From: Eledone cirrhosa
Taxonomy: Eukaryota
Length of the DNA stretch: 64,000 nt
Direction: 5' to 3'
Assembly: GCA_964016885.1 (NCBI GenBank)
Contig: OZ024746.1
Location: 27,962,001 to 28,026,000 of the forward strand
Shown: positions 1,475-63,790 of the stretch, piece by piece
Layout: each line of letters starts with the position of its first letter
How positions within the stretch are numbered: position 1 is the first letter of the stretch
The notes under the pieces: generated by a model
What the model was told of the DNA's origin: nothing
Databases searched by the model: none
What the model saw: only the letters and a program-made list of their open reading frames with translations
Made by a program: the position numbers and the translations under genes

Positions 1475-1660
1475 ATTTAGTGTAAACAAATTTTCATACG
1501 CTTAAAATGTATGTGCTACCAATGGTTTCGGGGTCAGTCCAGTCATGGCCACCACTGTATAATGGTCCTCCTCCATTATACAGTGGTATCCATGACTAGA
1601 CGCCAATACCATTGGTATCACATACATTTTAAGTGTATGAATCTTTGGCTACACTAAAAT
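1475..1660. repeat. Diverged fold-back (arms about 1475-1565 and 1573-1660) within a TA-flanked insert
   Basis: TTAGTGTA...TTAAAATGTATGTG.TACCAATGGT...CCACTGTATAATGG mirrored by CCATTATACAGTGG...ACCATTGGTA.CACATACATTTTAA...TACACTAA. Confidence 0.85.
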
Positions 1661-1883
1661 ATGTATATATATATATTAAGTATAAACCGAAGTTTAAGCT
1701 GTCGCACAGCAAGTACTATTTGATTTGTTTGAGGCAATCACAAAGCATTCAATGGAGCGAAAGTTAAAAAAACATTAAGTCCAGAGTAAACACACCAGTT
1801 AGAAAGGGGTGACACCAAGAAAAGCGACCAAAGGCACTGGGCATACTTATATCGCGACGATATATATATATATATATATATAT

Positions 1884-2390
1884 ATGAAAACATGGCGTGC
1901 TGCGTGGTTGCAAATGGGTTACATATGAATAAATTTAGTCCTTCATCAGTGATCTTCCAGCCTTCATTGGTATTTCATCGCTTTAAAGACCATATACCTC
2001 TGGTTGGTGCGAGCAACGGCTAAAGAAAGTCGTTGGGACACATAAATAGGGGGGGGGAGGCGAACGAGACAGTAAACAAACAAAGATGGTAATGCAACGA
2101 AAAGTGAGGAAGAAGGAGTCAAGTCCAGAAATCGATGAACACAAGTTCTGTGAAATCGTGGACGAGAGAGAATAAAGACCATCAAACCTGGTAGAAATTC
2201 GAGTAGAGAGAGAGAGAGAGAGAGAGAGAGAGAGAGAGAGAGAGAGAGAGAGAGAGAGAGAGAGAGAATAAGATAGTCTCGATGTCTGAATATGGTTAGT
2301 GGGGAAAAGAACCAAGCGAGATTTTTCTCACATTTTAGCGAAAAAAATTTCCTTTTAGTGATGCTAAATCATGAACGCTAGCAGGGTATA
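1884..2390. mobile_element. TA-flanked dispersed repeat, family H
   Basis: Shared core GTCCTTCRTCAGTGATYTTCCARCC.TCATYGGTATTTC at 1938, 11168, 25193, 27681, 58858 and 63157. Confidence 0.8.
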
Positions 2391-2407
2391 TATACATATA
2401 TGATATA

Positions 2408-3382
2408 CTAGCAGTAAAGCCCGGCGTTGCTCGGGGTCGCTCAGTAGCTGTGTTAAAGTTACAATGTTAAGTTTCTTTTTTGGCTTAAAAACTGTAGTGT
2501 CTACTGTGCAGACTTGCATGTGGTGTTTTTGATTAATATTCCCTCAACCAACAATATGCCTTATGAAGTTAAGAAAACATAACGATAACCCGAATGTTAT
2601 AACAAAAGAGGATGCTGGGGATAAAAACTGCACTGGTTATTTATTAACAAAGATCGAAAATGTAAACACTGCAACGCAGAGAAAAACATTAGCGTAACCA
2701 AATTATCAGTTATGTCTGTCTGCACGCCTATATCACCTCTCTGCACGACTGTCTGTCTGCACGCCTATATCACCTCTCTGCACGACTGTCTGTCTGCACG
2801 CCTATATCACCTCTCTGCACGACTATCTGTCTGCACGCGTATATCACCTCTCTGCACGACTATCTGTCTGCACGACTGTCTGTCTGCACGCCTAACGAAA
2901 TTTACAGATACATATATTTTAAATAAACTTATATAATTTTTGCTTTTTTTTACGAAATATTTGCTTGTTTTACGTAGTCTTTAAATAGACTTGTTTTCAA
3001 GTAAAAATATTGTTTTAAAAGGCTTTTAAATGGAAATGAAGCAAAACGGAAGCTTAGTGTTCGAACTGATGAATTTTGCAGTGTGTTAATGTCATTTTAA
3101 ACGCTGAGAAAGCCAGCGTAATTTTTTTAATTTTTGCACGCAAACGCTCAATGTAAACAGAACAAAGGGAAATAACTGATCACTTACGCTCAAAAATCGA
3201 TACATTATATTCGATTTCGTCAGATAGGGCAGGTCAATTTGAAATATTTTTTTTCTGATGTCTTCGCTAGGGCTCAATGTACAAGTATAGCAATTTCAGT
3301 GCAATTCCGTGAGAGATTCTAAGAGGAGATGTGTGCCAAAAATCGATAGACAGACAGACAACCACAGTTTTATATATATAGA
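2408..3382 (-). mobile_element. Non-autonomous Helitron, copy 2 (both termini present)
   Basis: Minus strand reads A|TCTATATATATAAAA...hairpin...CTAG|T. Internal 37-bp minisatellite at 2713-2893. Confidence 0.9.
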
Positions 3383-60423: not shown

Positions 60424-60920
60424 CATCATCATCATCATCATCATCATCATCATCACCGTTTTACGTCCGTTCTTCCACTCTAGCATGGGTTAGACGGGTT
60501 GTCCTGTTGTGGGCAGTGTCTGGTCGGCTGACTATGCCTTGCTGATACAGGAACTGATTTGGCTTGGTTTCTACAGCTGGATACCCTTCCTAACACCAAC
60601 CTCATTTACAGTGAGTGCTGGGTGCTTTTTCGTGGCGCCTACACGTCCACTTTACAGTGTGGGCTGGGTGCTTTTTTGCCGTGGCACCTCCACGACCACC
60701 TTGCAGTGGGGGGTGTGGGGGCATATTGTCTATATACTTCAGCTTGTACCCATGGGAGGTCGGGTACTCTGTATTACTGCGTGACGCCAGAGGTCACGGT
60801 CGTGTGTCATCGCCTTTGAGAGGTATAATTGGGTAAGGTCGGCTTTTATCACCTCATCCCAGGTCATCTTGGGTCTCCCCACTCCGCGGTTTCCATCGAC
60901 TTCTAGTGCTCTGCACCTTT
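60424..60920 (-). mobile_element. RTE-like LINE 3' end with (ATG)n tail
   Basis: Minus strand KRCRALEVDG..GVGRPKMTWDEVIKADL; (CAT)n on the plus strand at 60424-60455. Confidence 0.7.
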
Positions 60921-63146
60921 TTATATATATATTTTTTTATATATATATATATATATTTATTAAACTAACAGAATAAAGTTTAAGCAAAGAATCGCTGCTT
61001 TCACCCTTAACGGGATCTTCTGAAACTCTGTTATTTTAATAAATATTTGCTCTACGGTTCTTATATTTTTGATATATAATTATCCTTATCGACCCTCTTT
61101 GGATTTTAGTCTTCAAATTTATTATTATTACTATATATATATATATGAGACTTGGGGTGAGGAATGGAGGATTAATTGTGATAACCAGGCGAAAATAACT
61201 GTATGGGTGTATGTGTGTGTGCATGTATGTACCTATGTATGTACATATGTGTGTATGTATGTAAGTCTGACCAGGCAGGCTATTTGTAATACACGCACAC
61301 ACATGCAGACATACACGTGTGTGTGTATGTGTGTATGTGCGTATGTGTATGTATGTATTGGTTATGTATTTATGTATGTTTAGATTAAAGTTCGAATCTT
61401 TATGTCGTTTTGTGAATCTATGCCAAGCCTTCTACCCCCCTCTTTCTCTCTCTCTCTCTCTCTCTCTCCCTCTCTCTCTCTCCCTCTCTCTCTCTCTCTC
61501 TCTCTCTCACCCTCTTCTCTCTACATTCTTCTCTATATTTCTCTCTTTTTTTCGCTCCGTCTCTCTTTTACTATTTCCCCAGAGAAATATAGATAACGCT
61601 ACATTAAATTGCAGTTCCCGTAAAATATTCATGAGCAATGTCGGTTTATGTACAACAATTCTGTTTCTCTTCTCGTTAGTTCTTGATATATATACATGTG
61701 TGTGTGTGTGTGTGTGTGTGTGTGTGTGTGTGTGTATGTGTGTGTGTGTGTGTGTGCGTGCGTGTGTGTTTGTGTGCGTGCGTGTGTGTTTGTGTGCGTG
61801 TGTGTGAGTATATGCGTGTGCTCTTGTGTGTGTATTCGGCTAGCTTCGTAAACCAGGATTGTATATATATGTGCGTGTGTGAGTGTGTGCGAGCGTGTGT
61901 GTACATATAGATGCGTGTATGGCTATTTGTAAATTTTATATATATATATATATATATATATATATATATATATATATATATATATATATATATATATATA
62001 CTCAAGGTTTAGCAAATAAGAAAAAGTTTCAAAATAAATTTTAAAAAATATGTCTGTGTATTTGCAAATTATATATATATATATATATATATATATAATT
62101 TGCAAATACACAGACACATATACATATACATATATATTTATATGTGTGTGTGTGAGAGTTTCTGTGTGTAGTGTGTGTATAGTGTTTGCGGAGATTTTTT
62201 TCCAATTCAAATATAAGGTTATATAGAGTGACATTGAGTGTGACTGAATTACTTCCGTTGCATGTGATAATTCCCTACCTAGGAGAATTGAATTTCTGCT
62301 CTATCCTCACCTCCCATCACCATCCAAATCATACCACCACCTCCCATCACCCTCACTGTGATACCTCTAAGAACACACCACCATCTCCACCAATATCACT
62401 ACCACCACTGTTACCATCCGTGTCAATTTCCAGTTAATGTCGACCGCTCATGTGTACTGATAAATTGCTAACTCACACAGAGAGAGTCCAGATAATAAAT
62501 AAGTTTGCTTGAAAACAAGAATGAATGTGAAAATATTTCACACAAACAGGATGAAATTACCCGACATAAAAAATGCTTTGTTTTCGATGTAAAAGAAACA
62601 AAAACAACTCAACATATATTTAATAGCTGAGTGTCATTCCAGCGAGGATTCATGTCAGATGTTTATCCTCTGTGTTCAATATAACTACAGATATTTCATT
62701 TGTTTCCCCTACATAGAAACAGGAAACAGAAAGAAAATCACATGTTTAAAATTAACAGAATAGAGTCACAGATTTGGTGAGAAAGAAAAATGTCACGGAA
62801 AAATGGCACACTTTCGTGTAGAAAAAAAAAGAACTCTATTTTGCCAAGGAAAAATCATTTTCCTTGAATAACACTGAAAAAAGTAATTTGTTTAAAACTG
62901 TGGAAACATTTATAAAAATATAAGAGGGGAAAGAACTGAAGACACTTAAATTCCTGTACGAGTTGGGGCTAAAATACTATATACATACACACACACACAA
63001 ATATATATATATATATATAAGTGTGTGTGTGTATATATATATATGTATATACATACACACATAAACACACAAATATATATATATATATATATAAATGTGT
63101 GTGTGTGTGTGCGTATGTATGTATATATATATATATATATATATAT

Positions 63147-63480
63147 GAATAAAGTGGTCCTTCATCAGTGATCTTCCAACCATCATCGGTATTTCTTCGC
63201 TTTAAAGACCATATACCTCCGGTTGGTGCGAGCAACGGCTAAAGAAAGTCGTTGGGAAACGTAAATAAAGGGAACAGCGAGAGTGTAAACAAACAAAGAT
63301 GGTGAAGCAACGAAAAGTGAGGAAGAACGAGTCAAGTCCCAAATTTCCATGAATATAAGTTCGGTGAAATCGTGAACGAGAGAGAATAAAGACCATCAAA
63401 CCTATATAGTGAAGTGTGAAGAATAACAACATCAGGTGAGTCTAAAGGCCGCTGATCGCTAGAAATTGCGTCACTCGACC
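63147..63480. mobile_element. Family H copy
   Basis: Aligns with 1926-2190 and 25182-25420. Confidence 0.8.
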
Positions 63481-63536
63481 TTAATTACAGTGCATGTGTC
63501 TGATCAAATAATCGGAATACATATTTTATATATATA

Positions 63537-63790
63537 TAACATCAGGAAATAAGTGAGTATATTCCTAATTAAACGTTCGGGGTGCTAACTAATTGTATTG
63601 TGTGGAAAATTGGCTGTATTATTTCATATGAGACATATCGAATATATCTCTCTTATATATATACAATACAATTAGTTAGCACCCCGAACGTTTAATTAGG
63701 AATATACTCACTTATTTCCTAATGTTAGTTGAGTGAGTTGGAATTTGGCCGGAGTATCACTAAAAGCTTTCTCCGACAATGTATTTATTT
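63537..63790. mobile_element. TA-flanked fold-back, family J
   Basis: Arms about 63537-63601 and 63663-63727; the right arm extends about 60 bp further. Confidence 0.85.

What the first reader, a model, noticed from the sequence alone, without database searches (positions are those of the whole stretch)
1475..63790. Shared architecture: asymmetric head-to-head fold-backs inserted in (TA)n across nine families
Seen: fold-backs at 1475, 5545, 10016, 19608, 19832, 27215, 30831, 33113, 38057, 52071, 54209, 55625, 56068, 58856 and 63537. Outer ends are fixed within a family while the central junction differs per copy. Where HHR/AATAAA gives polarity (families C and D), both 3' ends point outward into the microsatellite. 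Known: PLEs can form inverted terminal-repeat arrangements. Inference: both strands of a cleaved palindromic TA target prime reverse transcription and the two 5'-truncated cDNAs join in the middle, making this a palindrome-generating retrotransposition pathway rather than MITE-type cut-and-paste.
Basis: partly seen in the sequence, partly recalled or inferred. Interest (0 to 1): 0.75.

Follow-up and report, generated by a model that had tools for sequence, protein, structure and literature searches.

The report
Twin-primed Penelope retroelement fold-backs
These mirror-image DNA pieces in TA repeats are real cut-short ends of Penelope-like jumping genes, a layout already described, and their joints indicate that each insertion is likely copied twice, once from each strand of the cut target, rather than by one strand folding back on itself.

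Summary
All 15 quoted fold-backs exist and fall into nine families. They are 3' ends of Penelope-like retroelements: hammerhead motifs point outward, and long copies of families A and C carry Hydra-clade endonuclease remnants. The layout (head-to-head inverted copy, one-sided tail, (TA)n target) is in print, and this scan has noted it many times in this genome.

What I add is a test on 1.23 Mb. In 134 of 144 pairs one arm ends at the inner site and the other at the tail end. Either arm can be the longer (42 against 28). In 25 of 156 pairs the arms barely overlap or do not overlap. Joints carry microhomology (18 of 37 have 2 nt or more; control 5%). Targets are duplicated by about 16 bp, and rare inserts join two different families. 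Self-priming or snap-back alone fails these tests and MITE transposition is excluded, so two-primer reverse transcription fits best.

The arms are not independent: they share subfamily and their inner ends are coupled. Joints recur at some sites. The 58856 family rarely folds back (2 of 30).

The parts
1410..1663 (.). Fold-back of a rare family: tail arm antisense 1410-1565, 7-nt spacer, short-ended arm sense
   Evidence: arms 86% alike; PLE membership inferred from layout only
5547..5715 (.). Family A: short-ended (S) arm antisense, tail (T) arm sense, 80-nt tail; S arm reaches 23 nt further in
10017..10283 (.). Family C: T arm antisense, S arm sense and 12 nt longer, 2-nt microhomology, about 93-nt tail
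10356..10515 (.).
19542..19813 (.). Family A subfamily fold-back, 1-nt centre; T side runs 154 nt past the S site
19832..20148 (.). Family D: T arm antisense (39 nt plus 97-nt tail), S arm sense, 143 nt longer, with type I hammerhead motif
   Evidence: locus L217 is this site
20294..20750 (.).
26026..26988 (+). 5'-truncated coding PLE: GIY-YIG endonuclease remnant with CX4CxxC linker, followed by the 3' end of another fold-back family, ending in (TA)n
   Evidence: Pfam PF01541 E 6e-5
27216..27526 (.). Fold-back with about 129-nt tail; T arm 18 nt longer, 2-nt microhomology
30831..30990 (.). Fold-back of a hammerhead-bearing family; short S arm abuts a SINE-like repeat
33113..33842 (.). 2.25 antisense tandem units of 271 nt, each with a tRNA-like segment, joined to a 119-nt sense arm
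   Evidence: tRNA-like only at relaxed ARAGORN threshold; none at default
38058..38593 (.). Family C fold-back with a nested SINE-like repeat (about 38369-38495) between arm and tail
52071..52609 (.). Family D, 221-nt arms, zero spacer at a self-complementary six-base word (52386-52391), hammerhead motif in each arm
54210..54388 (.). Family A; its joint recurs in 23 of the 30 most similar copies, across subfamily haplotypes
55626..55945 (.). Family C fold-back; S arm about 100 nt longer
56068..58582 (.). Long family C insert: short antisense T arm, long sense S arm holding a Hydra-type endonuclease remnant (57591-57740, CxCX5C linker), hammerhead motifs at 56253 (-) and 58488 (+), nested repeats
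58857..59700 (.). Family E fold-back, arms about 390 nt, 14-nt spacer from the T arm; atypical for its family, which is mostly single-armed or tandem
60956..61131 (.).
63539..63797 (.). Fold-back of a rare family, 63-nt arms, 61-nt spacer, 71-nt tail
   Evidence: PLE membership inferred from layout only

Best explanation
These are 5'-truncated insertions of Penelope-like retroelements, mostly of the Hydra clade, and they likely form by twin priming. Inferred steps: the element's endonuclease nicks both strands of a (TA)n tract about 16 bp apart. Each 3' end then primes reverse transcription at one of two fixed start sites, one at the inner S site and one at the tail end T. Both probably use one RNA, or two RNAs of one source. 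The two cDNAs stop independently or near each other and are joined 3' end to 3' end through 0-7 nt of microhomology, often at self-complementary words. Shown here: PLE hallmarks, the S-with-T rule, either arm longer, non-overlapping inversions, microhomology, target duplications, allele sharing and rare cross-family joins. Not shown: the order of events, one RNA versus two, and which enzyme joins the ends.
For: S with T in 134 of 144 pairs in 1.234 Mb not chosen for these elements. Longer arm: S 42, T 28, symmetric 13, unassigned 45 of 128; among arms at least 98% alike with spacers up to 20 nt, 8 S and 8 T. T arm starts at or beyond the S site in 25 of 156 pairs. Microhomology of 2 nt or more in 18 of 37 asymmetric joints against 5% of 813 shifted controls. 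Target duplication in 16 of 35 informative inserts against 3.4 +/- 1.5 for shuffled flanks, mode 16 bp. Subfamily alleles agree between arms at 109 of 115 (54 expected) and 103 of 103 (62 expected) sites, while private changes are mostly on one arm (24 vs 4, 13 vs 4). Cross-family head-to-head inserts L268 and L110, each S with T. Hydra motifs in partner ORFs. In vitro, a related PLE protein cuts and extends both strands, starts at two sites that define the tail, and is predicted to be a dimer (PMC11167929).
Against: Inner ends are coupled more than independent truncation predicts (39 of 82 within 20 nt against 20.1 +/- 3.2), which a hairpin route would also give. No pile-up of T-arm ends at the S site, as blocking on a shared RNA might give (7 against 12 and 7 in neighbouring bins). 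13 of 37 joints have no microhomology. 207 TA-anchored ends had no detected partner against 288 paired, and family E is mostly single-armed. Cross-family joins are rare (4 of 200, two of them complex) and could be nested insertions followed by deletion. Later deletion at palindrome centres could blur which arm was longer. All evidence is from fixed genomic copies.
Confidence: 0.7

Rival explanations
1. Self-priming or snap-back: one cDNA (or an antisense RNA, as proposed in PMC3846280) folds back and copies itself; the hairpin is then integrated, and later centre deletions diversify the joints.
For: Excess of near-symmetric joints; identical alleles on both arms; small duplicated fragments in some joints; proposed in print for head-to-head PLE palindromes.
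Against: Predicts that the tail-bearing strand always holds the spacer; the S arm is longer in 42 of 70 assigned cases, by more than 30 nt in 24. Cannot give arms that do not overlap (25 of 156) or cross-family joins. May still account for part of the symmetric class.
Confidence: 0.15
2. Whole hairpins are copied as units, by re-retrotransposition of a fold-back RNA.
For: One family A joint is shared by 23 of the 30 copies most like 54209. An earlier scan note reports edited hairpin copies in this genome (e1-8673030, not reproduced here).
Against: Those copies carry several haplotypes mirrored on both arms. In 56 short family A copies not chosen by that query the joint appears twice. No same-strand A-to-G excess in 162 elements (160 vs 153). 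It does not explain how first-generation joints arise.
Confidence: 0.08
3. MITEs or foldback DNA transposons moved by cut and paste.
For: Short, AT-rich, inverted, inserted at TA. Two small clusters with symmetric ends (6 elements) were set aside untested and may be such elements.
Against: Asymmetric ends, variable centres, hammerheads, PLE coding remnants inside long copies, 14-17 bp target duplications, many single-armed copies.
Confidence: 0.03
4. Assembly or library fold-back artefacts.
For: No raw reads of this individual could be laid on these loci; the runs found hold related sequence only.
Against: Arms differ by independent mutations (median 97.7% alike), ends are family-fixed, targets are duplicated, and opposite-strand joints of family A appear in raw reads of two runs and contigs of a third from a related organism.
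Confidence: 0.02

Closest known systems
Hydra clade of C-terminal EN+ Penelope-like elements (Craig et al. 2021, PMC8557442; File S1 lists Hydra-1_Obim with (TA)n preference)
   Same: CxCX5C linker, DKT, RW[K/R/Y], CxxC and CxH around the conserved E and N, hammerheads, (TA)n target.
   Different: Here mostly 100-800 bp stumps of dozens of families. The passages read give no S-with-T rule, joint statistics or target duplication length. Sequences were not aligned to the published families.
Inverted pLTR with one-sided tail in Penelope/Poseidon elements of Adineta vaga (PMC3846280) and in Naiads (PMC8557442)
   Same: Head-to-head inverted 5'-truncated copy, palindrome at the joint, tail on one end, target duplication.
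   Different: Tails of about 30-280 nt rather than 30-40 nt; duplications about 16 bp rather than 8-10 bp. The authors favoured self-priming, which fails several tests here.
PAc (Poseidon of Anolis) in vitro (PMC11167929)
   Same: Both target strands cut and extended; two internal start sites define the tail; AT-rich target; start in a stem-loop.
   Different: Another clade. The parts read (first half of the text, through results and model) do not link this to inverted insertions or to pairing of the two start sites.
L1 twin priming (recalled; seen only as search listings)
   Same: Second target strand primes a second cDNA, giving an inversion joined by microhomology.
   Different: In L1 the second primer anneals at variable internal sites and the arms do not overlap; here both start sites are fixed and the arms usually overlap into a palindrome.

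Membership tests
EN+ Penelope-like elements | RT plus GIY-YIG endonuclease in a partner ORF colinear with the same 3' end | tested here: met
   Family C ends flank RT-EN ORFs in L169 and other loci; EN remnant inside family A copy L049. By motif only: Pfam gave no hit for three Hydra-type ORFs and a GIY-YIG hit for 26026-26457. Not shown for D, E, 1475, 27215, 30831, 33113, 63537.
EN+ Penelope-like elements | Type I hammerhead motif in the pLTR | tested here: met
   Motif scan positive in C, D, the 30831 family and about ten more; family A folds as a three-way junction with a variant core. Rfam reached no gathering score. None seen in E, 1475, 63537 or 33113. Cleavage not tested.
EN+ Penelope-like elements | Inverted 5'-truncated copy and one-sided tail | tested here: met
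   134 of 144 pairs are S with T
EN+ Penelope-like elements | Target-site duplication from staggered nicks | tested here: met
   16 of 35 informative against 3.4 +/- 1.5; lengths 11-29, mode 16; about four calls doubtful
Hydra clade | CxCX5C linker, DKT, RWK-type motif, CxxC and CxH around E and N | tested here: met
   Families A and C and two others. One other fold-back family has a CX4CxxC linker and is not Hydra (26026-26988).
Hydra clade | Placement with published Hydra RTs in a tree | not tested
   Reference sequences were not fetched
MITE / foldback DNA transposon | Symmetric terminal inverted repeats, fixed internal sequence, short superfamily-specific target duplication | tested here: not met
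Non-LTR retrozymes | Head-to-tail arrays of hammerhead-bearing units | tested here: inconclusive
   Tandem units occur (44484-45229, family E, 33113) but most copies are single inverted stumps

The most novel reading that the evidence does not exclude
The PLE tail is the footprint of an obligate two-site mechanism: one RT-endonuclease dimer holds a single RNA at two start sites, positioned by a conserved RCTC...GAGY hairpin, and primes both strands of a (TA)n cut at once. This would make Hydra elements a genome-scale generator of some 300,000 palindromes, each also lengthening its microsatellite by about 16 bp, and a possible major source of the double-stranded RNA edited in these animals.
Probability: 0.4. 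Interest if true: 0.7.

Novelty: new member of a known kind. Interest (0 to 1): 0.45.

Why it matters
How PLEs form their inverted, one-tailed insertions is named as an open problem in PMC8557442, and the proposal found in print is self-priming (PMC3846280). The counts here separate the models and give numbers an in vitro assay can check: S paired with T, about 16-bp stagger, microhomology joints. At 85-113 detected pairs per Mb outside the window's neighbourhood, the genome would hold roughly 300,000 such hairpins (extrapolation). PMC5625713 reports octopus as unusually rich in loci that could form long double-stranded RNA; a link to these elements is a hypothesis and was not tested. The elements and their layout are themselves known.

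Tried and rejected
A fixed RNA 5' end from hammerhead cleavage as the cause of the family A joint hot spot: a genome-wide pattern search gave 5 unrelated-looking hits, and longer copies place the hot spot in the stem II loop, upstream of the predicted cut. A-to-I editing recorded in arms: no strand bias in 162 elements. Gene conversion as the cause of allele sharing: private changes are mostly one-armed. Blocking of the T-primed cDNA at the S site: no pile-up. Rfam: only microRNA-type noise and two sub-threshold hammerhead hits. Pfam: no hit on three Hydra-type ORFs. A search for a fourth tail-anchored family returned nothing, which shows nothing. A first target-duplication scan caught almost only family C and was replaced. 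Reads laid on 58857-59700 came from related sequence and did not test that locus. Searches disagreed on zero-spacer joints because of reference choice; one search settled one family. Fourteen of 18 apparent cross-family pairs lacked two proper ends in TA (most involved a nested SINE-like repeat) and were dropped.
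Full report
Observation. Self-comparison of the window finds head-to-head arms at all 15 quoted sites, in nine families. After masking simple repeats the window holds 18 local inverted repeats and each of 10 shuffles holds 0. The window lies in a 3.0-Gb genome. Earlier scan notes call it an octopus; I did not test that.

Sampling. I took 117 stretches of 10 kb plus the window, 1.234 Mb in all, none chosen for these elements. They gave 179 TA-anchored inverted candidates in 82 clusters. 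For junction work 128 remained after I removed eight clusters (low complexity, local arrays, and two small clusters with symmetric ends, six elements), rows with short arms or tails under 20 nt, and 20 hand-listed rows. The symmetric clusters are therefore absent from the pairing counts below. Targeted sets were added: 30 copies like 54209, and tail-anchored copies of C (30), D (22 examined) and E (30).

Identity. Type I hammerhead motifs occur in C, D and about ten more families, always with the 3' end outward. Family A folds as a three-way junction with a variant core. Long copies contain endonuclease remnants, and family C ends flank RT-endonuclease ORFs. Their motifs (CxCX5C, DKT, RW[R/Y], CxxC and CxH around E and N) match the Hydra definition in PMC8557442 (section 11 and passages read). 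Its File S1 lists Hydra-1_Obim with (TA)n preference. One family has a CX4CxxC linker instead. The assignment rests on motifs; Pfam did not hit three Hydra-type ORFs. For 1475, 63537 and E, membership rests on layout alone.

What is known. Passages of PMC3846280 describe head-to-head inverted pLTRs with a one-sided tail and 8-10 bp duplications, and propose self-priming. PMC8557442 calls this layout typical and its origin unresolved. PMC11167929 (parts 1 and 2 of 4 read) shows a PLE protein cutting and extending both strands from two start sites that define the tail. PMC4209133 (passages), PMC13282606 (passages), PMC5625713 (passages) and bioRxiv 2026.07.22.740005 (part 1 of 5) gave background. 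Five searches listed no paper applying twin priming to PLEs; the three hits were seen as listings only.

Pairing rule. In the unbiased sample 134 pairs are S with T, 4 are S with S and 6 are T with T. Five of the six are overlapping counts in two tandem arrays. A further 207 TA-anchored ends had no detected partner. Fold-back frequency differs by family: 22 of 30 in C and 15 of 22 in D within 1.5 kb, but 2 of 30 in E.

Joints. The longer arm is S in 42, T in 28, symmetric in 13 and unassigned in 45. In 25 of 156 pairs the T arm begins at or beyond the S site, so the arms barely overlap or do not overlap. A single strand folding back cannot make these. Of 37 asymmetric joints with an exact natural reference, 18 have 2 nt or more of microhomology, against 5% of 813 shifted controls; 13 have none. 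By my reading, about 8 of 11 zero-spacer joints sit on natural self-complementary words of 4-8 nt, several recurring in unlinked copies. Inner ends are coupled: without family A, 39 of 82 lie within 20 nt against 20.1 +/- 3.2 in 5000 within-family permutations. Annealing at local palindromes, a shared RNA 5' end or a minor hairpin route could each give this.

Template. Arms agree at subfamily-diagnostic columns (109 of 115, 54 expected; 103 of 103, 62 expected), and private changes are mostly on one arm. So both arms come from one RNA or one source, without much later conversion. The family A set in that call includes the 30 copies chosen by similarity. Among all loci held, 4 of 200 complete pairs join different families. 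L268 and L110 are clean, S with T; L268 has 3 nt of microhomology and no remainder of the first family in the 260 bases downstream. L043 and L008 are complex, and L250 was seen by eye.

Target. Of 220 pairs, 35 have interrupted TA on both flanks. Sixteen show a duplication, mode 16 bp, against 3.4 +/- 1.5 for shuffled flanks; about four are doubtful.

Tail signal. RCTC lies 3-13 nt past S in 21 of 42 families (3.6 +/- 1.8 shuffled). An NCTC...GAGN frame occurs in 17 of 42 (1.9 +/- 1.3), closing A-T in 9, G-C in 4 and unpaired in 4. Single-sequence folds of two tails are no more stable than shuffles. Its role is inferred. The second hairpin beyond T reported in earlier notes was not tested.

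Artefact check. The window's own loci could not be tested with reads. In a related organism, raw reads of two runs and contigs of a third show opposite-strand joints in family A and TA after both the S and T ends. These are reduced-representation libraries, so read-end pile-ups there were ignored.

Verdict. A real, genome-wide and already described PLE layout, noted before by this scan in the same genome. The joint statistics favour twin priming over self-priming (0.7); whether one RNA serves both primers is about even.

Noticed in passing
window 33113-33842: The 271-nt tandem unit contains a tRNA-like segment (relaxed ARAGORN only). Arms in eight loci start at unit positions 120-124, in its 3' acceptor strand, at a self-complementary four-base word.
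   Followed up: partly
window 5913-6166 and 62048-62119: Palindromes centred on a (TA)n tract, with arms of about 77 and 20 nt. The 5913 arm has no other copy in the sample; possibly a template switch inside the microsatellite.
   Followed up: partly
window 44484-45229: Head-to-tail dimer of a hammerhead-bearing unit about 466 nt apart, with sub-threshold Rfam HH9 hits (38.6 bits).
   Followed up: no
family E, L245-L274: Young unit of about 530 nt, mostly single or tandem in (TA)n, no hammerhead seen, sometimes fused to other PLE families (L267, L268, L274, L250).
   Followed up: partly
family D tail ends, L215-L236: Many T ends are followed by two extra letters or a (TC)n or A run before the duplicated target, suggesting slippage or untemplated addition at the start of copying.
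   Followed up: no
L055 1031-1364, L099 5644-6096, L071 6769-7167, L097 3649-4449, L122 2996-3233: Two small clusters with symmetric ends in TA; may be true MITEs or S-with-S families.
   Followed up: no
window 19542-19607: The extension beyond a family A tail resembles the arm of another fold-back cluster, suggesting one element with more than one pair of start sites.
   Followed up: no
window 9043, 12266, 30970, 31172, 38369, 48406, 53892, 56496, 57766, 60250: An abundant SINE-like repeat of about 200 nt, often nested in AT-rich parts of the fold-backs.
   Followed up: no
L181 4618-7185 (-); window 29186-30127 and 31345-31773: An 856-aa open non-LTR RT frame in L181, and broken LINE-like RT remnants in the window.
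   Followed up: no
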